DNA of 64,000 nucleotides. Source: Candidatus Entotheonellaceae bacterium. Lineage in GTDB: Bacteria > Tectomicrobia > Entotheonellia > Entotheonellales > Entotheonellaceae. The stretch covers positions 1,728,001-1,792,000 of the forward strand of contig OZ250173.1 of NCBI GenBank assembly GCA_965238075.1. The letters run 5' to 3'. Made by a program: the position numbers and the translations under genes. Shown piece after piece: positions 10,774 to 20,677 of the stretch; position 1 is the first letter of the stretch; each line of letters starts with the position of its first letter. Under the pieces are notes generated by a model. The model saw only the letters and a program-made list of their open reading frames with translations. It was not told the DNA's origin and made no database searches.

Positions 10774-11348
10774 CCTGCTGTTCCCACCTTGGTACGCGGG
10801 CGTCTCGCCAGCAAATCCCCTGACCTTCCTCACGCGGCCCCCTGCTTCATGCGCCGGGGAACCGGCGCCGTGGTCGGGACGCACTGTACACGACAAAAGT
10901 CATTAAGTAGTTGAAAGAATAGGTGTAACCTCCTATCGTGGAAGGTCTACCAAGCCTATCCACAACACCTGACGTGTCAGGAGATTACACCCATTAAGCA
11001 CTCTGCCAGACTCGCCGACCTGCTCCAATCCACCTTTGGCTTACACCGGGCTCGCGTCGCCTGTCTGGCCGCCCTTGTCATCGCCCTGTTCAGGGTCAAA
11101 ACCGTCAACCTCGCCCAACTCGCCACCGCCTTTCCGGGGACTGCCGAGATCGGCGCCTGCAACGCTTCTGCCAACACGTCCAACTCCAACCCGCGCGCGT
11201 GGTCACATTCGTGCTCGCTTTTCTACCCGACGCCCCCTACACCCTGACTCTCGATCGAACCCAGTGGATGCTTGGCAGGGTGCCCATCAACTTCCTCGTC
11301 CTGTCCGTCGTCCACGACGGCACCGCCTTCCCTCTTTTCTGGCGCGTC

Positions 11349-11372
11349 CCTGAATCAAGTTCAGGGCAGGCT
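11349..11372. repeat. Family B 24-bp element (B1), in frame in transposase
   Basis: CCTGAATCAAGTTCAGGGCAGGCT = PESSSGQA; removal restores WRVLAKRGNS. Confidence 0.88.
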
Positions 11373-11805
11373 CTGGCCAAAAGGGGCAACTCCAATACCC
11401 AGGAGCGCATCGAGTTGCTGGGTCAGTTCCTCACGGTGGTTGGGGGCGACAAGATTGACTGTCTGGTAGCTGACCGAGAGTTTATCGGCGCCACCTGGTT
11501 CGCCTGGCTCAGAGCCAACCACATCCCCTTGTGCATCCGAACACGACATGCGGGTCTCGCGGACAACCGGAGCCTTATCACCGGCGCGCAACTTTTTCAG
11601 AAGTCTTCCCCGTTCGACCTCGTGTTCCTTGATCGGCCCGCGTCTCGTTTGCGGCCACTGGCTTTGGGTAACCGGTCTGCGCTTGTCCTGTGGGGCTTAT
11701 TTGATCGTGGTGTCAAATCGTCCGGGTCATCGAGCCCTGGAGATGTATAAGCAGAGGTGGCAGATAGAGGTACTCTTCGAGGCGCTCAAATCAAGAGGCT
11801 TCAAC

Positions 11806-11829
11806 CCTGAATCGAGTTCAGGGCAGGCT
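11806..11829. repeat. Family B 24-bp element (B2), in frame in transposase
   Basis: CCTGAATCGAGTTCAGGGCAGGCT, 23/24 identical to B1; removal restores SRGFNFEETRL. Confidence 0.88.
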
Positions 11830-12054
11830 TTTGAGGAGACGCGCTTGAGAGATGCCAAGCGCTTGGAGACGTTATGTGGTGTGTTGGCGATAGCGTTTTG
11901 CTGGGCCTATCATGTAGGTGCTTGGTGGCATCGGCTCAAAGCGATCCCGCTCAAGACGCATCAGAGAGCCGCGAAAAGCCTGTTTCGCCATGGATTTGAC
12001 GGCATTCGCCAAGCCGTCCTTAATGTGACAGACAAGTGGGAGCAGTTTGAGCAG

Positions 12055-12077
12055 AGCCTGCCCCGACCCGATCCGGG
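12055..12077. repeat. Family B element (B3), 23 bp, opposite orientation, frameshifting
   Basis: AGCCTGCCCCGACCCGATCCGGG; removal gives EQFEQVLSLLWKVL...PT* ending just inside the right terminal repeat. Confidence 0.75.
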
Positions 12078-12219
12078 GTCCTCAGCCTGCTCTGGAAGGT
12101 GCTCACTTCGCCCAAAGCGCTTCTCCATCCACTCTACCCTACATAATTTTCGTGTACAGTGATCGCGACGTTCCCCTTCATCGTGTGGGAAAAGAAGGGC
12201 TGTCGTACTGGAGGAGGGG

Positions 12220-12615
12220 TCAGCCACTCAGCCCATCCAGCAGCCATTGCGGGAACCTCACCGGCCGTTGCTGGTCGTTGACACACATGTGCGTGGTAGT
12301 GCCGGAGGCCAGGAGTTGCTCCTGTCGGGTGACTTCGTAGGCATAGCACAGTTGGCGGGATTTCAGCTCCTGCACGCGGGTACGCACGGTGATTTCCTCA
12401 TCGTAACGCGCGGAAGCGGTCAGGCGGCACTGGAATTCGGTGACCGGGAAGTAATACCCGCGGCTTTCCAACTCGGTGTACGGCATGCCGACCGCCCGCA
12501 TGTATTCTGAACGGCCGCATTCAAACCACACCAGGTAATTGGCGTAGTAAACGATGCCCATCTGATCGGTCTCGGCGTACCGGGGGCGCAGGTGCAGGCT
12601 GACGATTCGTGACAT
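12220..12615 (-). CDS. Acyl-CoA thioesterase, YbgC/FadM hot-dog family
   Basis: RYAETDQMGIVYYANYLVWFECGR; ATG at 12615. Confidence 0.92.
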   Translation of the reverse strand: MSRIVSLHLRPRYAETDQMGIVYYANYLVWFECGRSEYMRAVGMPYTELESRGYYFPVTEFQCRLTASARYDEEITVRTRVQELKSRQLCYAYEVTRQEQLLASGTTTHMCVNDQQRPVRFPQWLLDGLSG

Positions 12616-12650
12616 GGGTTCGCTTTCCGCTCCGCAGGCGGCAGGGGTGG

Positions 12651-13793
12651 TTATTGGTCGTAGGTGATGCGGTAGATGACACCGGCGCGGTCGTCCGAAA
12701 CCAGCAGGGCGCCGTCGGGCATGACTAGCACGTCCACGGGGCGTCCCCACGCTTGCGCGCCGCGCAGCCAGCCGTCCACGAACACCTCGTACTCCTCAGC
12801 CTGGTCGCCCGCCAGTTTCACCCGCATGACGCGATAGCCGATCGGCGTGCTGCGATTCCAGGAGCCGTGCTGCGCCACGAAGATCTGATGCCGGTACGCC
12901 TCGGGAAACATGCTGCCTGTGTAAAACCGCATCCCCAACCCGGCGACGTGCGGGCCGAGGGCAACCACCGGCGACTCGAACTCCGAGCACGGCCGCTCGC
13001 TGCCGAATTTCGGGTCGGGAATTTTGCCCTCGTGGCAGTATGGAAAGCCGAAGTGCAGCCCGGGACGCGGGGCGTGGTTGAGTTCGTCCGAGGGGCGATT
13101 ATCGCCCAGCATGTCGCGGCCATTGTCGGTGAACCACAGCTCGTGGGTTTCCGGGTGCCAGTCGAATCCCACCGAGTTGCGCACCCCGCGGGCAAACGGT
13201 TCCAACCCGGTTCCGTCCGGGCGCATGCGGAGGATGGCGGCGTAGCGCGGGTCGTCGCTACGCTCGCACACGTTGCAGGGCGCGCCGACCGGTACATACA
13301 TCAGGCCGTCGGGGCCGAAGGCGATGAATTTCCAGCCGTGATGGCGGTCGTTGGGCAGGGTGTTGATAACCACTGAAGGCCGCGGCGGGCGGTCCAATCT
13401 GGCTTCGATGTCGTCGTAGCGGAGGATACGGCTCACCTCGGCCACGTACAGCGACCCGTCTCGGAAGGCAACACCGGTGGGCAGGTTCAACCCACGGGCA
13501 ATGGAGATGACGGTTTCGGCCTTGTGGTCGCCGTCGCGGTCCACAACGGCGTAAACTCGGCCCGCGCGGCGGCTGCCTACGAACACGACGCCGCTGGGGC
13601 TCAGGGCCATGGCGCGGGCGTTCGGGACGTCGTCGGCGTAGAGACTGATGGAAAACCCGGGCGGCAGGTTGAGAGTGTGCAGGGGCAGTTGCTTGGCCTC
13701 GACCGCCGTCGCGTATACGGCCACACAAAGGACGACAAGCACGCTGATATGGGCGCCAAGGCTGGGATGTGTTTTCCGTCGTAAAACTGACAT
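12651..13793 (-). CDS. Exported PQQ-dependent glucose/sorbosone dehydrogenase family beta-propeller protein
   Basis: Signal peptide; FGPDGLMYVPVGAPCNVC, GVRNSVGFDW, HGSWNRS, GRPVDV, LLVSDD. Confidence 0.88.
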   Translation of the reverse strand: MSVLRRKTHPSLGAHISVLVVLCVAVYATAVEAKQLPLHTLNLPPGFSISLYADDVPNARAMALSPSGVVFVGSRRAGRVYAVVDRDGDHKAETVISIARGLNLPTGVAFRDGSLYVAEVSRILRYDDIEARLDRPPRPSVVINTLPNDRHHGWKFIAFGPDGLMYVPVGAPCNVCERSDDPRYAAILRMRPDGTGLEPFARGVRNSVGFDWHPETHELWFTDNGRDMLGDNRPSDELNHAPRPGLHFGFPYCHEGKIPDPKFGSERPCSEFESPVVALGPHVAGLGMRFYTGSMFPEAYRHQIFVAQHGSWNRSTPIGYRVMRVKLAGDQAEEYEVFVDGWLRGAQAWGRPVDVLVMPDGALLVSDDRAGVIYRITYDQ

Positions 13794-13896
13794 GAAACCT
13801 CCGGAGCGCCGCGGCGCCGATTCGTCAAGATTGAGTCATCGAGGGTTGGAAACGATTGCAGTCCATGTTAGCGCGTTCGGTCAGCCGCTCGCAAAC

Positions 13897-15492
13897 TCAC
13901 GCCGGGCTTGCCTGTCTCCGGGGCCGGCTGGCCAGCCGCCGCACGACAATCCACGCCATGGGCAGACAGGCCAGGAGGAACGCCACGCCAATCATCAGAA
14001 AGCTGTCGCGGAAGCCCGCGGCAACGGCCTCCAGGTCCATCTGTTGCTTGATCGTCTTCAAGGCTCCCCAATCCGCGTTTCCATCCATGATTCCGGCTCG
14101 ATTCAGGTAGCGCTTCACGTCGTCCAGGGCCGTCGTATGGGTGGGCGCCATGGCGTCGTATTCGTGGTAGCTCACCAATTGGTGCGCAGCGCGCTGCCGT
14201 TCAAAGAACACGCTGGTCACGGTGACCCCGAGGCTGGCGCCGATGTTGCGCGTGACGCCCATCAAGCCCTGGCCCATGCGCACGTCCTCTGGCGGCAGCA
14301 TCTGAACGTTGAGTGCCGTCAGCGAGGTGATGGTCGAAAACATGCAGGTGCGATACAGAATGATGTAGCCGATCAACACGCCGGCGGTCGTCAGCGTCGT
14401 AACCGTGGCGAAACTCATGAACACGCCGGTGAGCACCACGAACCCGACCGTGGCCATGACGGCAGGCGAAATCATGTCGTTGAGACGGCCGCTGACCACG
14501 CCGCTCAGTCCCGATACGATCAGCGCCGGCACGATGATCAGGCCAGCCTGTAATGGCGTGAACCCCATCACCTGCTGCAGAAAGATCGGCACCATGAATT
14601 GGGCGCCGAAAAGGCCGATCATATTGAAGAATGCCGTGACGCAGACGTTTCGAAGCCCGGCGCGGCGAAACAGCCGCAGGTTCACGGCGGGGAAACGGGT
14701 GAACAGTTCCCACAGGATGAACAGGCTGCCGCCGGACGCAGCGCCAATGCCCAGGAGCACGATGGTGGACACGGCGGTGCTGCGGTCCCGCGCCAGGCTG
14801 ATCGCCAGCAGCAGCGGTACCAGAAAGCCGCCCAGGAACGTGAGACCCAGGTAGTCGACCGGCTCGCGGCGCCCATCGCGTTGCTGCGGGAGCATCAGCC
14901 AACCCAACAGCACCGACAGGACGCCGGTGGGCAGGCCCATGAAGAAGATCAGGCGCCACGAGACGTGCTCAAGGAAGTAACCGCCCAAGGTGAACGAAAT
15001 GATGTGTCCGGCCGACCAGCCGACGGTGCGCAGCCCCAGCGCCAAGCCCCGCTGCCGGGCCGGAAACGTCTGTACCAGAATGACCGCCGTCAAGCCCTCC
15101 ATCGGTCCCAGCGCGGTACCTTGCAGCAGTCGGAAGAAAACCAGCATGGGCAGATTGGTAGCCAAGCCGCAGCCGATCGATGAAATGACGAAACCCGCCA
15201 TGATGGTCACGAACAGATTGCGGTTCCCCATGACTGCGCCGAGCCAGCCCAGCATGGGGATCATCAGCGTGCGGGCGATGAGAAAGCCGGTGGTGACCCA
15301 TTGCGTGGTCGCCAAGTCCGTGCCAAACGCCGCCATCAGCCTGGGAATGGCCAGATTCACGCTGTTGCCGGCGAACGTCTGGGTTCCCCCTGCCACCAGG
15401 ACGATAGCGGCCACCAACCACTTGTAGCTCGGCGCTTCGGTATCCAGCGCCAATACGGTAGAGGCGCGCGCGCCTTCTACGGATCTTGCCAT
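13897..15492 (-). CDS. DHA2 (EmrB/QacA-like) MFS transporter
   Basis: About 14 hydrophobic segments; VNLAIP, QWVTTGF, FRLLQG, SWRLIFF, NLRLF. Confidence 0.9.
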   Translation of the reverse strand: MARSVEGARASTVLALDTEAPSYKWLVAAIVLVAGGTQTFAGNSVNLAIPRLMAAFGTDLATTQWVTTGFLIARTLMIPMLGWLGAVMGNRNLFVTIMAGFVISSIGCGLATNLPMLVFFRLLQGTALGPMEGLTAVILVQTFPARQRGLALGLRTVGWSAGHIISFTLGGYFLEHVSWRLIFFMGLPTGVLSVLLGWLMLPQQRDGRREPVDYLGLTFLGGFLVPLLLAISLARDRSTAVSTIVLLGIGAASGGSLFILWELFTRFPAVNLRLFRRAGLRNVCVTAFFNMIGLFGAQFMVPIFLQQVMGFTPLQAGLIIVPALIVSGLSGVVSGRLNDMISPAVMATVGFVVLTGVFMSFATVTTLTTAGVLIGYIILYRTCMFSTITSLTALNVQMLPPEDVRMGQGLMGVTRNIGASLGVTVTSVFFERQRAAHQLVSYHEYDAMAPTHTTALDDVKRYLNRAGIMDGNADWGALKTIKQQMDLEAVAAGFRDSFLMIGVAFLLACLPMAWIVVRRLASRPRRQASPA

Positions 15493-15689
15493 TTTCGATT
15501 CTCTTTCCGGCCCGGTTCTGACATCAAGATATGAAGCAGTGTAACCGAATCAGCGAGCCGAGCGTCGGTCTGAGGCCTCCGGTTTGTGCTATGGTAATGC
15601 TATTGGCGTTTTGAGGATATTGACGAGTTGCGGTTGCCCGCGCTGGACGATGACACCATCATTGGCGGTTTATGGGGAGAGAAAACGAA

Positions 15690-16895
15690 ATGGCCACGAC
15701 GCATCTTGACTATGCCAGTCTGTTCGCCAAAAACGCACCCGAAGGGGCAACATCTTGGGGTGGATTTCCGACCTACAACTTCGTCGGCGGCCATAACAAC
15801 CCCGAGACGATGCCCGTTGAAGACTTCGTCGAATCCTCCGCCCGCGTGTTGAGGCAGGAAGGCCAAAACCTGGCGACCTACAACATGGAAAGCGGCCCCC
15901 AAGGCTACACCGGGCTGCGCGGATTCCTCGTTGAGAAACTGGCCCACTATCGCGGCCTGCGGGCGCCCGATGAAAATATCCTGATCACATCGGGCTCCAA
16001 CCAGGGCATCGAGCTCATCAACGAAGTCCTGCTGGAACCCGGCGACACCGTGATCGCCGAGCTCTTCACGTATCAAGGCGTGGTGGGCCGGTGGCGCAAG
16101 CTGCAGGTGAACGTGGTCGGCATTCCGCTGGACGAAGACGGCATGCGCATGGACGCCTTGGCCTCAACGCTCGCTGATCTTCGCAGCAACGGCGTCAAGC
16201 CCAAATTCATCTACACCATTCCCACCCTGCAAAACCCCACCGGCACGGTGCTCAGCCTGGAACGACGACACGAGATGCTGCGGCTCAGCCGGGAGTACGG
16301 GGTGCCGATCTTCGAGGATGAATGCTACGCCGATCTGATCTGGGAAGGCGAATGGCCGCCGGCCATCTGCGGTCTGGACGACAGCCACCACGTCCTGCAC
16401 ATCGGCTCCTTCTCCAAATCCCTGTCGCCCGCCCTGCGCCTTGGCTACGTCGTGGCGCCGTGGCAGGTGCTGAGCCGCATGCTGGCTTGCAAGACGGACG
16501 GCGGAACCGGCGCGCTGGGGCAAATGGTGGTGGCGGACTTTTTCCAGAACCACTACGAGGAGCACATGGACAAGTTGCGGACAAGCCTGAAGGTTCGATT
16601 GCAGACGCTGGCCGACGCCCTCGTCGAGCACTTCGGCTCGTCCGTCGAATTCCAGGCGCCGCGCGGCGGCATGTTCCTGTGGGTCAAGTTTCCGCCGGAG
16701 GTAGACACCCTGAAGTTGGCAGGTCCGGCGCTGGAGGCCGGTATTGCATACAATCCCGGGCCTGAGTGGGCCGTGGAACCCGACGCGGCACGCAACTACC
16801 TGCGGCTGTGTTACGCCCTGCCGTCCGAGCAGCTCATCAGGGATGGGATTGCCAAGCTGGCGCAAGTCTTCCGGCGGGAGGCGGGCATCCCCTGA
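15690..16895 (+). CDS. PLP-dependent aminotransferase, class I/II (LysN/MocR-like)
   Basis: ITSGSNQG, YTIPTLQNPTG, EDECY, GSFSKSLSPALRLG. Confidence 0.9.
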   Translation: MATTHLDYASLFAKNAPEGATSWGGFPTYNFVGGHNNPETMPVEDFVESSARVLRQEGQNLATYNMESGPQGYTGLRGFLVEKLAHYRGLRAPDENILITSGSNQGIELINEVLLEPGDTVIAELFTYQGVVGRWRKLQVNVVGIPLDEDGMRMDALASTLADLRSNGVKPKFIYTIPTLQNPTGTVLSLERRHEMLRLSREYGVPIFEDECYADLIWEGEWPPAICGLDDSHHVLHIGSFSKSLSPALRLGYVVAPWQVLSRMLACKTDGGTGALGQMVVADFFQNHYEEHMDKLRTSLKVRLQTLADALVEHFGSSVEFQAPRGGMFLWVKFPPEVDTLKLAGPALEAGIAYNPGPEWAVEPDAARNYLRLCYALPSEQLIRDGIAKLAQVFRREAGIP

Positions 16896-16930
16896 CGGCG
16901 CCGGCGGCTTGCGCCGCGGGCCGTCCGACG

Positions 16931-17338
16931 CTATTCGTAGACCATCCATTCCAGTAGGTTGTCGTCCGGGTCGCGGGCATACAGGCTCAACGACGGCGCT
17001 TTGCCGCGACCGCGCCCACCCGAACGCGGCACCGGGCCTTCGATGATCGTGACGCCCGCTTCTTCCAACATGCGCTGGCAATCGGTCACGCTGCCTTCCC
17101 ACACGAAGCAAATGTCCGTGCAGCCGGGCACCGCCGTCGGCCCCCGCAGCCCGGCGGTAAACCCTTCGGGGTGCACGTTGATTTTCGACTCTCCCACCTG
17201 GAGCGAGAAAATCGGCATCGTGCCGGCCCGCCATTCCGCCTCATTGTTGATGGGAAAACCAAGGCCCTTGTAAAACGCGAGCAATGCCTCAGCGTCTGCT
17301 GTCGGCATGGCGATGTGATCGATTCCAACGGTTGCCAT
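16931..17338 (-). CDS. VOC/glyoxalase family protein
   Basis: GIDHIA, FYKGLGF, DICFVW, EGPVPRSG, SLYARDPDDNLLE. Confidence 0.88.
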   Translation of the reverse strand: MATVGIDHIAMPTADAEALLAFYKGLGFPINNEAEWRAGTMPIFSLQVGESKINVHPEGFTAGLRGPTAVPGCTDICFVWEGSVTDCQRMLEEAGVTIIEGPVPRSGGRGRGKAPSLSLYARDPDDNLLEWMVYE

Positions 17339-17380
17339 TGCAATCCCCCCTTTGCTGTGTCGCCTGATCGATTGCAGGCG

Positions 17381-20300
17381 TTACGTCAGAGCCGCCAAAG
17401 CCGTTTCCACGTTGTTCATCTGTTCCTTACACGTCGCCAGGCGGTCGCGCTCTTTCTGCACGACCTCCGGGCTCGCTTTGCTGAGAAACTGCTCGTTCGC
17501 CAGCTTGCGCTGCGAGCCGGCGATGCGACCGCGAAGCTGATCCCGCTGTTTGGTCAGACGGTCGCGCTCCTTTGTCATGTCAATCACACCCGGGACATAA
17601 ACCTCAACACCGCCCACCACGGCGGTGGCGGCATCCGGGGTGCGTTGGATGTCGGGCGAGATGTCGACGGCGTCAAGGCGCGCCATGTTCATGAGCAGGT
17701 CGGTCACACCCCGCAGTATTTCAGCGTCGGCTTCATTAGCCCGAATATGGGCGGAAATCCTAGCCTGCGGCGGAATCGTATATTTGCTGCGCAAGTCACG
17801 AATGCCGCGTACGACTTCCTGCAGAAACGCGATACGCGCCTCGACAGCGGCGTTCCGCCAAGCCACTTCTGAGGTGGGCCAGGGCGCATGGATCAACAGC
17901 GGCGTGGCCGCCAACGGCTCGTCGATGCCACGCTGCGGCGCTTGCTCGTTGAGGGCTTCCCAAAGACGCTCGGTCAGGTACGGCACAAACGGGTGAAAGA
18001 GACGCAAAACCTGATCGATGGTCATCGCCAAGACCTGCTGGGCAACACCGGCCTGAGCAGCGTCGCGCAAGCGCGGCTTGATGAATTCGAGATACCAATC
18101 GCACAACTCGCCCCAGAAGAAATCCCGCGCTGCCCATAACGCGGCTGCCGGATTATAGGACGATAGGTGGCCGTGCACGGTCTCGACCGCGCGAGAAAGC
18201 CGCGACAGGATCCAGCGATCCTCGGCAGCGAGATCATCGATCTGCAAGGGCTGAAAGGCCGCATCGGTCAGATTCATGAGAGCAAAGCGCACGGCGTTCA
18301 AGAGCTTGTTGCAAAAATTGCGTCCTGCCTCGAAGCGCTCGCTCACCAGCTTGGCCGCCGGCACCTCGGGCATGGTGCCGAGCACGTCAAACTCCTTGCC
18401 CGTTGCCGGACACAGATAGGTAAAAATGCTCTGCCCGTGCTGCGCCGTGGCCAGGTCGATGAAGTCGCCCGTATACGGCGAGATCGCTTGCACCGGCAGG
18501 CGGATATCCTGCATGCCGGTCTGCATGTCGCACAGCACATAGCGCATGGCGTCGGCGCCGTAGCGTTCAATGATGTCCACGGGGTCGATGCCGTTGCCCT
18601 TGGACTTGCTCATCCGCTCGCCCTTGCCGTCCAGGATATTGGCGTGGATGAACACGTCGGTGAACGGCACGTCGCCCATGTTGTAAAGGCCCATGATCAC
18701 CATGCGGGCCACCCACAGGGTGATGATGTCGCGCCCGGTGACAAGGCATGAGCCGGGGTAGTAATAGGACAGGGTGTCGGGAAAGCCGTTCTGGCTTCGC
18801 ATGGGTGGCTGGCCGGCGTTGACCTCAGCGGTTTCCGGGTCGGGCCACCCGAGGGTGCTTTGCGGCCACAGACCGCTGGAAAACCAGGTATCGAGCACGT
18901 CCGGGTCCTGCGTCAGCCCCTGATCGGCGCATATCTGGACCAACGCCGTCTCAGCTTCGAGGTCTCGCAGGCAAGCCATGACTTCCACTTCGCTGCCCGC
19001 GGCGAAGGATTCGGGTAGGCCGCGTGCGTCGTCGGAAGTTTGCAGCACGACGTTCGCCCCGTTGGCATCGACTAGGCGCAAGCACAGGTCGCCCCGCTCG
19101 AGATGCGGCGTGAGGGCGCTCAAAACATCCTGCAGAGCGCTGCCCGTGAACGTGCCGGTCCACACCGGAATGCGATGCCCCCACCAAAGCTGGCGGCTGA
19201 TACACCAATCCCGCTTTTCGCCCAGCCATTGCAGATAGGTGTTGCCGTAGCGCACCGGGTCGGGGTGGAAGCTGACGTTGCGGCCGGTCGGCGAACGCCA
19301 GTCGCCCCCCGTTCGGGCCGGGGGCAGGCTCTGCGCCGCATCCATCGCCGCCTGCGCCAAGCCCGGCGCCGCAAAGGCGTTCGGCGTGCCGCGCCCACAG
19401 ACGATACCGCCGTCAACATCCCCCATTTTGACAAACCACTGTCTGGAGAGATAGGGCTCGATAGGTGTCTTGGAGCGGTCCGAGTGGCCGATCTCGATGT
19501 CGCGCGCCTCCCTGGCTTCTAGCAGATCGCGCGCCTGCAAATCCGCCGTCACGCGCTCGCGGGCCACGAAGCGGTCCAGCCCTCCGTAGGGCCCGGCATT
19601 GGCGTTCAGTGTGCCGTCTTCATTGAGGATATTGATGCGGTCGATCTCGTCCTGATGCCGCGTCCATACGTCATAGTCGTTCGGGTCGTGCGCCGGGGTG
19701 ATCTTCACGCAGCCGCTGCCGAGTTCGGGCTTGACCCACTCGTCGCAAATCAGCGGTATGGGACGGTCCAGCAGGGGCAGGCGCGCTTGGCGACCCTCCC
19801 GAGCCATACGAACCAGGGCGAGCAGCGTGGGCAGATGGCTCGCCTGCCGCTCTTCGAGTCGGGCCACCTCCTCCGCCAGAGCGGCTTGCTCGCGCGGCGG
19901 CGCCTGTTCCAGACGGCGCTGCGTCTCGGCGATGCGGGCCGCGAGAACGCCCGCCGGATCGGGATGACAGGCCACCGCGGTGTCGCCGAGCATGGTTTCC
20001 GGGCGCGTCGTGGCTACCACCACGTGGGTCGGCTCGCCCGGCTGCGGGTCCACGATCGGATACCGTAGATAGTAGAAATGGCCTTGCACGGCCTCGTAGA
20101 CGATCTCGTCATCGGCGACGGCCGTTTGCAGTTGACAGTCCCAATTGACCAGCCGATGACCGCGGAAAATCAGGCCGTCGCGGAACATCGCAAAGAACGT
20201 CCAGCGCACGGCATGCGCGCACACCGGGTCCATGGTGAAGCGCTGGCGGTCCCAGTCGCACGAGCAGCCCATGCTTTGCTGCTGTTGGACGATGCGTTTC

Positions 20301-20677
20301 TGGTACTGGTCTTTCCAATCCCAAATGCGTTTTTCCAGCCCGGCGCGCCCCACGTCGTGGCGCGTCTTGCCCTCCAGTTCCAGGAGACGTTTCTCCACGA
20401 CAGCCTGGGTTGCGATGCCAGCGTGATCGGTGCCGGGCATCCACAGCGTGTTGTCGCCCATCATGCGGTGCCAGCGAGTCAGCAGATCCTGCATGACGTT
20501 GTCCATGGCATGACCCATGTGCAGGGCGCCGGTGACGTTGGGCAACGGCATCATGATGACGTAAGGATTCGCGTTGTCATCCGGGAACGCTGCAAACGCC
20601 TTAGCATTCTGCCAGCGGTCGAAGATACGCTTTTCGATCTCGGCGGGCTCGTATTGCTTGGGTAGCTCACTGGGCAT
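17381..20677 (-). CDS. valS: Valine--tRNA ligase, long form with several insertions
   Basis: PNVTGALHMGH, GTDHAGIATQ, ATTRPET, DWCISRQLWWGHRIP, DVLDTWFSS, RMSKS, C-terminal coiled coil; ATG at 20677. Confidence 0.97.
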   Translation of the reverse strand: MPSELPKQYEPAEIEKRIFDRWQNAKAFAAFPDDNANPYVIMMPLPNVTGALHMGHAMDNVMQDLLTRWHRMMGDNTLWMPGTDHAGIATQAVVEKRLLELEGKTRHDVGRAGLEKRIWDWKDQYQKRIVQQQQSMGCSCDWDRQRFTMDPVCAHAVRWTFFAMFRDGLIFRGHRLVNWDCQLQTAVADDEIVYEAVQGHFYYLRYPIVDPQPGEPTHVVVATTRPETMLGDTAVACHPDPAGVLAARIAETQRRLEQAPPREQAALAEEVARLEERQASHLPTLLALVRMAREGRQARLPLLDRPIPLICDEWVKPELGSGCVKITPAHDPNDYDVWTRHQDEIDRINILNEDGTLNANAGPYGGLDRFVARERVTADLQARDLLEAREARDIEIGHSDRSKTPIEPYLSRQWFVKMGDVDGGIVCGRGTPNAFAAPGLAQAAMDAAQSLPPARTGGDWRSPTGRNVSFHPDPVRYGNTYLQWLGEKRDWCISRQLWWGHRIPVWTGTFTGSALQDVLSALTPHLERGDLCLRLVDANGANVVLQTSDDARGLPESFAAGSEVEVMACLRDLEAETALVQICADQGLTQDPDVLDTWFSSGLWPQSTLGWPDPETAEVNAGQPPMRSQNGFPDTLSYYYPGSCLVTGRDIITLWVARMVIMGLYNMGDVPFTDVFIHANILDGKGERMSKSKGNGIDPVDIIERYGADAMRYVLCDMQTGMQDIRLPVQAISPYTGDFIDLATAQHGQSIFTYLCPATGKEFDVLGTMPEVPAAKLVSERFEAGRNFCNKLLNAVRFALMNLTDAAFQPLQIDDLAAEDRWILSRLSRAVETVHGHLSSYNPAAALWAARDFFWGELCDWYLEFIKPRLRDAAQAGVAQQVLAMTIDQVLRLFHPFVPYLTERLWEALNEQAPQRGIDEPLAATPLLIHAPWPTSEVAWRNAAVEARIAFLQEVVRGIRDLRSKYTIPPQARISAHIRANEADAEILRGVTDLLMNMARLDAVDISPDIQRTPDAATAVVGGVEVYVPGVIDMTKERDRLTKQRDQLRGRIAGSQRKLANEQFLSKASPEVVQKERDRLATCKEQMNNVETALAALT
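19307..19330. repeat. Family B 24-bp element (B4), in frame in valS
   Basis: Minus strand AGCCTGCCCCCGGCCCGAACGGGG = SLPPARTG, preceded by CAG and followed by G as in B1 and B3. Confidence 0.78.

What the first reader, a model, noticed from the sequence alone, without database searches (positions are those of the whole stretch)
11349..19330. A 24-bp hairpin+CAGGCT mini-element that inserts into ORFs and adds 8 amino acids (family B)
Seen: four copies at 11349-11372, 11806-11829, 12055-12077 (reverse orientation) and 19307-19330 (in valS). In common orientation each is a 6-7 bp stem beginning CCC, a TCRRG loop (TCAAG, TCGAG, TCGGG, TCGGG) and an invariant CAGGCT tail. Three of four are followed by CTG, all are preceded by C, and there is no target duplication. 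Stem sequences differ but stay paired. Removing B1 and B2 restores IS4 transposase motifs (WRVLAKRGNS, SRGFNFEETRL). Three copies are exactly 24 bp (PESSSGQA, or SLPPARTG in ValS); the 23-bp copy frameshifts a dead gene. Known analogues: Rickettsia palindromic elements in ORFs and REP elements mobilised by HUH enzymes. Inference: a non-autonomous, codon-length mobile unit, shorter than those analogues, mobilised in trans by an enzyme not in this window.
Basis: partly seen in the sequence, partly recalled or inferred. Interest (0 to 1): 0.85.

Follow-up and report, generated by a model that had tools for sequence, protein, structure and literature searches.

The report
24-base mobile hairpin repeat (REP-like)
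A 24-base DNA hairpin with a fixed CAGGCT tail has copied itself cleanly into dozens of places in this sponge-associated bacterium, including working genes where it adds eight amino acids; it is a new family of the known small palindromic repeats, found across many bacterial groups, and what moves it is unknown.

Summary
The window has 3 matches to the CCC-N13-GGGCAGGCT pattern against 0.01 expected.

The unit is a real mobile insertion of exactly 24 nt with no target duplication:
- valS in 5 of 5 close relatives has an exact 24-nt gap.
- Two diverged IS paralogs are empty at the B1 and B2 sites.
- Nine sites filled in relatives are empty here.
- One ORF shows a 0/24/48/72-nt series across the genus.

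The preferred target is GAC^CTG. The genome holds about 34 strict copies. Only 8 lie in ORFs; most are nested in other small repeats.

It belongs to a known kind: REPs are 20-40 bp, and single REPs inside genes, including tRNA synthetase genes, were described in 2013 (PMC3733652).

What is new:
- It has neither the GTAG nor the CGTC tag.
- The same 25-mer, with compensatory stem variants, occurs across many bacterial groups and in viral contigs.
- It shows no link to Y1/RAYT genes. Two single-contig genomes with 23 and 52 pattern matches have none.

The mobilising enzyme remains unknown.

The parts
11349..11372 (+). Copy B1. Its stem is CCCTGAA/TTCAGGG and its loop is TCAAG. It lies in frame in an IS4-like relic and reads PESSSGQA.
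   Evidence: Searches show the sequence. A paralog at genome position 1899653 has an exact 24-nt gap at this site.
11806..11829 (+). Copy B2. It has the same rare stem variant as B1, lies 457 nt downstream of it, and has the loop TCGAG.
   Evidence: Searches show the sequence. A paralog at genome position 1702723 has an exact 24-nt gap at this site.
12055..12077 (-). Copy B3. It is a 23-nt decayed copy with one base missing from the 3' arm, and its loop is TCGGG.
   Evidence: nhmmer E = 0.36. No paralog covers this site, so no empty site is available.
19307..19330 (+). Copy B4, inside valS (the gene is on the minus strand). It adds SLPPARTG to the protein.
   Evidence: Searches show the sequence and translation. 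Five of 5 closest relatives have an exact 24-nt gap. The insert lies in a variable linker of ValS. Contigs from 4 runs bridge it without a gap.
10879..12161 (+). IS4-like insertion-sequence relic. It is frameshifted and hosts B1, B2 and B3.
   Evidence: Diverged paralogs at 78-80% identity cover this range. The DDE_Tnp_1 match is weak, E = 0.0016.
17381..20677 (-). valS, the valyl-tRNA synthetase gene that hosts B4.
   Evidence: One search gives the translation. One search finds relatives up to 96% identical. One search matches solved ValRS 1GAX. The start codon at 20677 is my reading.

Best explanation
Family B is a non-autonomous, REP-like mobile DNA hairpin.

The unit is 24 nt: CCC-NNNN, a TCAAG-type loop, NNNN-GGG-G, and the fixed tail CAGGCT. 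It enters DNA after a C at sites of the form G-H-C^Y-T-G (typically GAC^CTG). It duplicates nothing and deletes nothing.

Shown:
- insertion is base-exact and recurrent;
- it has continued since the species of this genus split;
- copies cluster locally;
- the stem is kept paired through compensatory changes;
- 5 of the 6 reading frames of the consensus are open, so an insertion always keeps the frame and rarely brings a stop codon.

Inferred:
- The unit moves as a folded single strand. A hairpin-specific nuclease or strand-transferase encoded elsewhere cuts it at C|CCC and GCT|Y and pastes it in. The chemistry is most likely of the HUH kind, as in IS200/IS605 and RAYT.
- That enzyme is not a Pfam Y1_Tnp protein encoded next to the repeats.
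- Many copies multiply passively, because B has landed inside other mobile mini-repeats (CGTC-tagged REP dimers, GTGG-type REPs, G/C-tract repeats, and other copies of B) and travels with them.
For: Mobility:
- valS is empty in 5 of 5 closest relatives.
- The B1 and B2 sites are empty in paralogs.
- Of 26 loci from other genomes, 15 align across the site in G000. Eleven of those 15 (9 distinct sites) are empty here, with gaps of 24 nt (one of 22) or 48/49 nt for nested doubles. Four are filled in both genomes.
- One ORF with a PIG-L domain carries 0 nt (G005), 24 nt (G001, G002), 48 nt (G000, G004) and 72 nt (G003) at the same point.

Target: in 31 distinct contexts the base after the insertion is C or T in 31, the next is T in 27, and G stands three bases before the insertion point in 23. 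The same bias appears in 104 contexts from other bacteria and viral contigs.

Structure: among 36 distinct variants, 92.9% of cells pair, and 0 of 500 shuffles reach that figure. Four of the 7 pairs show changes on both sides.

Local spread: there are 8 pairs of copies within 5 kb against 1.7 expected, p = 0.0014. B1 and B2 share a rare stem variant.

Hitch-hiking: B recurs at three fixed points of the CGTC REP dimers and in the loop of other B copies. In G031 it sits in the loop of a GTGG-type REP with the same flanks at all 15 sites in the 7 G031 regions read.

The hairpin-cleaving HUH chemistry is taken from PMC8266576 (passages read): TnpA-REP cleaves single-stranded REPs 5' or 3' of the hairpin.
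Against: - No enzyme was identified.
- No Y1_Tnp match was found in G005 (1 contig, 23 pattern matches) or in G032 (a record titled as a chromosome, 52 matches).
- None of 22 Y1 loci has a B copy within about 1.5 kb.
- The window genome's own Y1 gene is flanked by different hairpins and has no ortholog in the genus.
- IS110 and reverse transcriptase are each missing from one B-rich genome.
- Copy orientation does not mirror the two replichores, as it would for IS608-type lagging-strand targeting. My tally is about 13+/7- on one side and 11+/6- on the other, and the origin and terminus are only roughly placed.
- The insertion point is unpaired in predicted single-strand folds at 6 of 8 natural empty sites, against a base rate of 0.40-0.45. 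That is not significant.
- No strain with an empty valS was seen in contigs of 4 runs.
Confidence: 0.55

Rival explanations
1. B is an ordinary REP mobilised by a RAYT or another IS200-like Y1 HUH transposase, as proposed for GTAG REPs and REPINs.
For: - It is hairpin-shaped, makes no target duplication, and has a fixed unpaired tag next to the stem. In reverse orientation it reads AGCCTG plus hairpin, which places the tag where GTAG sits in REPs.
- Y1_Tnp matches exist in 5 of the 6 genus genomes and in 4 of 5 other B-carrying genomes.
- RAYTs cut single-stranded REPs on either side of the hairpin (PMC8266576, passages read).
Against: - G005 and G032 have no Y1_Tnp match yet hold 23 and 52 pattern matches.
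- None of 22 Y1 loci is flanked by B.
- The genus has no conserved Y1 ortholog. The matches are a 261-aa gene in G000, a canonical IS200-type match in G003, and domains at 38-41% identity inside open frames of 1224-1242 codons in G001, G002 and G004.
- The G000 gene is bracketed by GCAGACA/TGTCTGC hairpins, not by B.
Confidence: 0.15
2. No dedicated enzyme exists. B is copied into new sites when a stalled nascent strand switches template to a B copy and back, using the few bases of microhomology at GAC and CTG. Gene conversion then spreads it among dispersed repeats.
For: - The apparent target (GAC^CTG) equals the usual flanks of existing copies.
- Many copies sit at the same point of repeated hosts, where conversion would suffice.
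- No transposase family tracks the element.
Against: - Three bases of homology on each side are very few.
- It does not explain why this particular 25-mer, with its TCAAG loop and CAGGCT tail, is kept nearly letter for letter across many bacterial groups.
- It does not explain why the stem keeps pairing through compensatory change.
- Insertions occur in single-copy genes with no further homology.
Confidence: 0.12
3. B is mainly a functional motif, such as a protein-binding or RNA-processing hairpin (for example a tRNA T-arm mimic), kept by selection. Its spread is secondary.
For: - The sequence is strongly conserved across bacterial groups.
- One subfamily has a 6-bp stem and a TTCAAGC loop that resembles a tRNA T-loop (the resemblance is recalled, not tested).
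Against: - Copies occur in both orientations, inside genes, inside dead IS copies and inside each other.
- No Rfam family matches at E up to 10.
- No tRNA of this genome has a similar 3' end; the best has 7 mismatches in 24.
- Old copies decay: the pilin copy has diverged in relatives.
Confidence: 0.05
4. The 24-nt pieces are ancestral and the empty sites are precise deletions, so nothing has been inserted.
For: Presence or absence alone cannot give direction at any single site.
Against: - The same 24-nt sequence lies at unrelated loci.
- valS is empty in 5 of 5 relatives, and the 5 more distant valS loci also aligned, although their printed alignments were cut off.
- The nested 0/24/48/72 series needs additions.
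- Only 1-2 nt of flanking repeat is available to drive a deletion.
Confidence: 0.02

Closest known systems
Tagged REPs (GTAG and CGTC superfamilies), including intragenic REPs: Di Nocera, De Gregorio and Rocco 2013, PMC3733652 (abstract and sections 6, 15 and 17 read)
   Same: - It is a 20-40 bp dispersed palindromic unit with an unpaired conserved tag at one end.
- There are tens of copies per genome, mostly between genes.
- Single units are found in frame inside genes, among them tRNA synthetase genes.
- Like the CGTC class, it has no dedicated transposase gene.
- It shares the CTTGA/TCAAG loop with this genome's CGTC REPs.
   Different: - It has neither the GTAG nor the CGTC tag. Instead it has a 6-nt CAGGCT tail 3' of a 7-bp stem.
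- It has a sharply defined 24-nt insertion unit with base-exact empty sites and a defined target. I did not see this described for REPs in the sections I read.
REPIN-RAYT systems (Bertels and Rainey 2011, PMC3116915, search listing only; TnpA-REP biochemistry, PMC8266576, passages read)
   Same: - They are non-autonomous hairpin repeats thought to move as single strands.
- They make no target duplication.
- Inverted doublets occur; here they arise by nesting.
   Different: - There the replicating unit is a doublet and the RAYT gene is flanked by the repeats.
- Here single 24-nt units insert, and no Y1 gene is flanked by them.
- Two B-rich genomes have no Y1_Tnp match at all.
Rickettsia palindromic elements (RPE), as cited in PMC3733652; details beyond that are recalled
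   Same: They are palindromic repeats inserted in frame into working genes, adding a peptide segment.
   Different: - RPEs of the RPE-1 type are several times longer (recalled).
- They are confined to one lineage, whereas B is 24 nt and occurs across many bacterial groups.
IS200/IS605 insertion sequences and their miniature derivatives (mechanism as summarised in PMC8266576, passages read)
   Same: - Insertion occurs next to a short specific target sequence without duplication.
- The ends are recognised as hairpins.
   Different: - Those elements have two different hairpin ends and guide sequences 5' of each hairpin.
- B is one hairpin that starts at the first base of the unit.
- B shows no replichore-mirrored orientation.
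Mobile GC clusters and hairpin elements of mitochondrial genomes (PMC4478555, PMC2800124, PMC7813641; search listing only)
   Same: They are very short GC-rich hairpins that spread within a genome, sometimes into coding sequence, and their mobiliser is unknown.
   Different: They occur in organelles, have unrelated sequences, and I did not read those papers.

Membership tests
REP (repetitive extragenic palindromes, broad sense) | A short (20-40 bp) unit that forms a stem-loop, present as many dispersed copies. | tested here: met
   The unit is 24-25 nt. There are 34 strict copies in G000. Its 7-bp stem is supported by covariation.
REP (repetitive extragenic palindromes, broad sense) | Copies lie mostly between genes. 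| tested here: met
   Only 8 of 34 strict copies lie in ORFs supported by Pfam matches or codon-position GC. No gene annotation was available, so the count rests on my ORF reading.
GTAG- or CGTC-tagged REP superfamilies (PMC3733652) | An unpaired GTAG or CGTC tetranucleotide at one end of the stem. | tested here: not met
   In the alignment of 36 variants the unit starts with the stem (CCC...) and ends with CAGGCT.
REPtron / REPIN-RAYT system | A Y1 (RAYT) gene flanked by the repeats and inherited with them. | tested here: not met
   None of 22 Y1 loci is flanked by B. G005 and G032 have no Y1_Tnp match. The genus has no conserved Y1 ortholog.
REPIN | The replicating unit is an inverted doublet of REPs. 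| tested here: not met
   Single 24-nt units insert on their own. Doublets arise when a second unit enters the loop of the first.
MITE (DDE-transposase derived) | Terminal inverted repeats together with a target-site duplication. | tested here: not met
   The gaps are exactly 24 nt and the flanks show no duplication.
IS200/IS605-type single-strand transposition | Insertion 3' of a fixed short target, without duplication. | tested here: met
   The target is G-H-C^Y-T-G in 31 contexts and again in 104 contexts.
IS200/IS605-type single-strand transposition | Strand bias tied to the direction of replication. | tested here: inconclusive
   No mirrored orientation was seen. The sample is small, many copies are nested in other repeats, and the origin and terminus are only roughly placed.
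IS200/IS605-type single-strand transposition | Cleavage and strand transfer by a Y1 HUH enzyme. | not testable with these tools
   This needs biochemistry.
Rickettsia palindromic elements | In-frame insertion in working genes. | tested here: met
   valS, a MmeI-like gene, a PIG-L-domain ORF and a pilin-like gene. The length and lineage of RPEs do not fit (recalled).

The most novel reading that the evidence does not exclude
B is the smallest self-contained transposable unit yet defined in bacteria: 24 nt, one hairpin plus a 6-nt tail. It is kept nearly letter for letter across many bacterial groups and in viral contigs. It moves without any RAYT or IS200-type Y1 transposase. The mobiliser would then be either an unrecognised, widely spread single-strand DNA strand-transferase or a universal host enzyme. 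Because its filled and empty sites are base-exact, it would make the old question of how REP-type repeats move directly testable.
Probability: 0.3. Interest if true: 0.8.

Novelty: new variant of a known kind. Interest (0 to 1): 0.62.

Why it matters
How REP-type repeats spread has been argued since the 1980s. The evidence has been mostly indirect, because their borders and empty sites are seldom clean. This family gives:
- a fixed 24-nt unit;
- a defined target;
- stepwise 24/48/72-nt insertions in one gene across sister species;
- occurrence in cultured, harmless isolates whose record titles name Luteimonas, Pseudoxanthomonas and Dyella.

Trap assays and oligonucleotide biochemistry are therefore feasible.

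It also shows that essential genes such as valS tolerate such inserts. For annotation, it shows that 8-residue indels between close species can be mobile DNA rather than slippage. If no Y1 enzyme is involved, an unknown hairpin-handling activity is waiting to be found.

Tried and rejected
1. tRNA origin. The unit can be read as 5+7+5+7 nt, like a T-arm plus a 3' acceptor strand. None of the 49 tRNAs found by ARAGORN has a similar 3' end; the best has 7 mismatches in 24. Rejected.

2. Known RNA family. There were 0 Rfam matches at E up to 10 on window 11300-12120.

   - It is present in 23 of 31 genomes: in 7 of 7 with B (the G002 match is weak, E = 8.5e-4) and in 16 of 24 without B. It does not discriminate.
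   - Only 2 of 18 DUF559 loci have a B copy within 1.5 kb. In both, B is nested in the G/C-tract repeats that bracket the gene.

4. Other candidate families, each searched in five B-rich genomes.
   - Y2_Tnp: 0 of 5, but the control rang nowhere, so this is uninformative.
   - IS110: 4 of 5, missing in G032.
   - Reverse transcriptase: 4 of 5, missing in G035, and the G000 copy has 2 stop codons.

5. Genes bracketed by inverted B pairs in G031, G032 and G035. The pairs turned out to be B carried inside other repeats, flanking ordinary intergenic positions. Their ORFs were not sent to Pfam.

6. Insertion into loops of single-strand folds: 6 of 8 natural empty sites against a base rate of 0.40-0.45. 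Not significant.

7. Replichore-linked orientation: none seen.

8. Strains with an empty valS. Contigs of 4 runs from 4 studies all bridge the insert without a gap, and no joint was reported. Contigs drop rare variants, so this shows only that the filled form is the common one. One of the four is an RNA library, whose contig also keeps the insert; DNA carry-over cannot be excluded.

9. Literature by sequence string: 0 papers hold any of six B strings. Sequences printed only in figures or supplements would be missed.

10. Earlier notes of this scan, searched by sequence: nothing found.
Full report
**The observation**

Each has a 6-7 bp stem that begins CCC, a loop of the TCAAG type, and the tail CAGGCT. 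Each follows a C.

B1, B2 and B4 are 24 nt. B3, on the other strand, has lost one base of its 3' arm. The pattern CCC-N13-GGGCAGGCT occurs 3 times in the window, against 0.01 expected from 100 shuffles.

B1 and B2 read PESSSGQA in the frames of the two ORF pieces of an insertion-sequence relic. B4 reads SLPPARTG in ValS.

**Copies in the genome**

The window lies in a single 3.35-Mb contig of 62% G+C. Its closest named relatives carry Candidatus Entotheonella or Tectimicrobiota labels.

A strict scan required CCC...GGG, at most one stem mismatch and at most one tail mismatch. It finds 36 places. Two of them lack the loop type and look like chance, which leaves 34. A profile search adds decayed and tail-less copies, for roughly 45-50 in all.

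The consensus is CCCCGGA-TCAAG-TCCGGGG-CAGGCT. Its first C belongs to the target.

By my reading of flanks, ORFs and Pfam hits, 8 of the 34 lie in ORFs:
- valS;
- a MmeI-like restriction-modification gene;
- an 894-codon ORF with a PIG-L domain;
- a pilin-like gene;
- two DDE_5 transposase N-termini;
- two in the IS4-like relic.

The rest lie between genes, mostly inside other small repeats. About 13 are in CGTC-tagged REP dimers at three fixed points. About 8 are in the loop of another B copy. Two are in a GGGGTGAGGGG/CCCTCTCCC repeat.

**It is an insertion**

- valS in the 5 closest relatives (90-96% protein identity) has an exact 24-nt gap. The empty site reads GTCGCC^CTGCGCC.
- Two diverged paralogs of the IS relic are empty, with 24-nt gaps, at the B1 and B2 sites. 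No paralog covers B3.
- In the other direction, 26 loci holding B in other genomes were compared with G000. Fifteen align across the site. Eleven of these (9 distinct sites) are empty here, with gaps of 24 nt (one of 22), or 48/49 nt where two units are nested. Four are filled in both genomes. The other 11 loci gave no spanning alignment.
- In the PIG-L ORF the same point carries nothing in G005, one unit in G001 and G002, a second unit in the loop of the first in G000 and G004, and a third unit in G003.
- The MmeI copy is shared with G003 and absent from a G001 paralog. The pilin copy is shared by all five relatives and has begun to decay.

No flanking duplication is seen anywhere.

**Target and structure**

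In 31 distinct contexts from the genus, the site is G (23 of 31)-H-C^Y (31 of 31)-T (27 of 31)-G (18 of 31), typically GAC^CTG. The same bias holds in 104 distinct contexts from other bacteria and viral contigs. The motif is not rare: about 9,000 sites per strand.

The stem is real. In 36 distinct variants, collected without asking for pairing at the three free stem positions, 92.9% of cells pair and 0 of 500 shuffles reach that. Four of the 7 pairs change on both sides.

Copies cluster, with 8 pairs within 5 kb against 1.7 expected. B1 and B2 share a rare stem variant.

Five of the six frames of the consensus are open. The sixth holds TGA (my reading of the sequence). The valS copy lies in that sixth frame but has the loop TCGGG, as does B3 7 kb away, so it reads CGA.

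The ValS insert lies in a 53-residue stretch that does not align to the 17 residues at this place in the solved Thermus enzyme. Contigs of four runs from four studies, one of them an RNA library, all carry the insert.

**Distribution**

Within the taxonomic family of G000, the consensus with up to 2 mismatches is found in 5 of 5 other genomes of the genus (7-21 matches each). It is found in 0 of 8 genomes of five other genera. The reversed control gives 0 everywhere. The CGTC REP of this genome has the same distribution.

The element is nevertheless not confined to the genus. In 98 of 126 matches the three free stem pairs are perfect, where chance would give about 1 in 64.

The 80 record titles I could see name:
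- Dehalococcoidia and other Chloroflexota;
- Alpha-, Beta- and Gammaproteobacteria, including cultured Luteimonas, Pseudoxanthomonas and Dyella;
- Thermodesulfobacteriota;
- Thermodesulfovibrionales;
- Bacteroidota;
- Brocadiaceae;
- Binatia.

Five of these genomes, searched whole, hold 3 to 63 pattern matches. Each has its own prevailing stem variant. A further 43 stretches lie in IMG/VR viral contigs.

In G031 the unit sits in the loop of a GTGG-type REP, and the composite has multiplied. Copy number is therefore partly hitch-hiking.

**What moves it**

Nothing I tested tracks it.
- The one Y1_Tnp gene of G000 is bracketed by other hairpins and has no ortholog in the genus.
- G005 and G032 have no Y1_Tnp match despite 23 and 52 pattern matches.
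- None of 22 Y1 loci has B nearby.
- DUF559, IS110 and reverse transcriptase do not discriminate, and the Y2 search was uninformative.
- Orientation is not mirrored across the replichores.

I therefore commit to a trans-acting, hairpin-specific cut-and-join enzyme working on single strands as the most likely mechanism. I hold the RAYT version at 0.15 and an enzyme-free template-switch model at 0.12.

**Comparison with what is known**

REPs are 20-40 bp. They fall largely into GTAG- and CGTC-tagged superfamilies. They occur as single units inside genes, including tRNA synthetase genes. In the CGTC class they lack a dedicated transposase (PMC3733652; abstract and sections 6, 15 and 17 read). RAYTs cut single-stranded REPs at C|T beside the hairpin (PMC8266576, passages read).

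B is thus a new family, or variant, of a known kind. It is not a new kind, and it is not shorter than REPs.

Earlier notes of this scan describe REP-like hairpins in frame in essential genes of other genomes. None shares this sequence.

I found no paper text holding the B strings. Figures and supplements were not searched, so an earlier description under another name cannot be excluded.

Noticed in passing
Genome-wide, outside the window. Examples are G000:C1:156865-156990 and 1803955-1804090.: There is a family of about 40-58 CGTC-tagged REP head-to-head dimers. The left unit reads CGTC-ATTCCGGG-CTTGA-CCCGGAAT-CCAG and the right unit CTGGACTCCGG-CTTTCG-CCGGAGTGACG. It is found in 5 of 5 other genomes of the genus and 0 of 8 genomes of other genera of the family. 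It shares its loop with B.
   Followed up: partly
Genome-wide in G000.: A classical GTAG REP (GTAGGTCGGATTAGC...TAATCCGAC) is present; its 12-mers each occur about 50 times. No Y1 gene flanked by it was found.
   Followed up: no
L295 (G000:C1:2666258-2669581), L291 (G005) and L292 (G032).: The DUF559 genes of three genomes from two distant lineages are bracketed by G/C-tract hairpin repeats (CCCTTCCCCC...GGGGGAAGG with a GATGGGGG-type arm). B is nested in these repeats in 2 of the 3.
   Followed up: partly
L147, L148, L149 and L153-L156 (G001, G002, G004).: Y1_Tnp-like domains, 38-41% identical to the G000 gene, lie inside open frames of 1224-1242 codons. They could be fusions or read-through of neighbouring genes.
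   Followed up: no
G032:C1:1154120-1154150 and 1238919-1238950; G031:C8:8116-8146.: Some copies have the tail on both sides (AGCCTG-hairpin-CAGGCT), which gives a perfect 31-nt palindrome.
   Followed up: no
G000, whole contig.: The cumulative GC skew does not close (net +12,833). Its minimum is broad, at 1.54-1.9 Mb. Origin and terminus are therefore only roughly placed.
   Followed up: no
G000:C1:789569-789587, 1299780-1299798 and 2651326-2651344.: Three copies of the B hairpin without the CAGGCT tail replace the loop and one arm of the right CGTC-REP unit (tggactccgg-CCCCGGATCAAGTCCGGGG-taacg). This may be a link between the two families.
   Followed up: no
G000:C1:1050803 and 1051815.: Two identical B copies (loop TTGAG) lie in a tandemly duplicated segment of about 1 kb with the same 70-nt left flank.
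   Followed up: no
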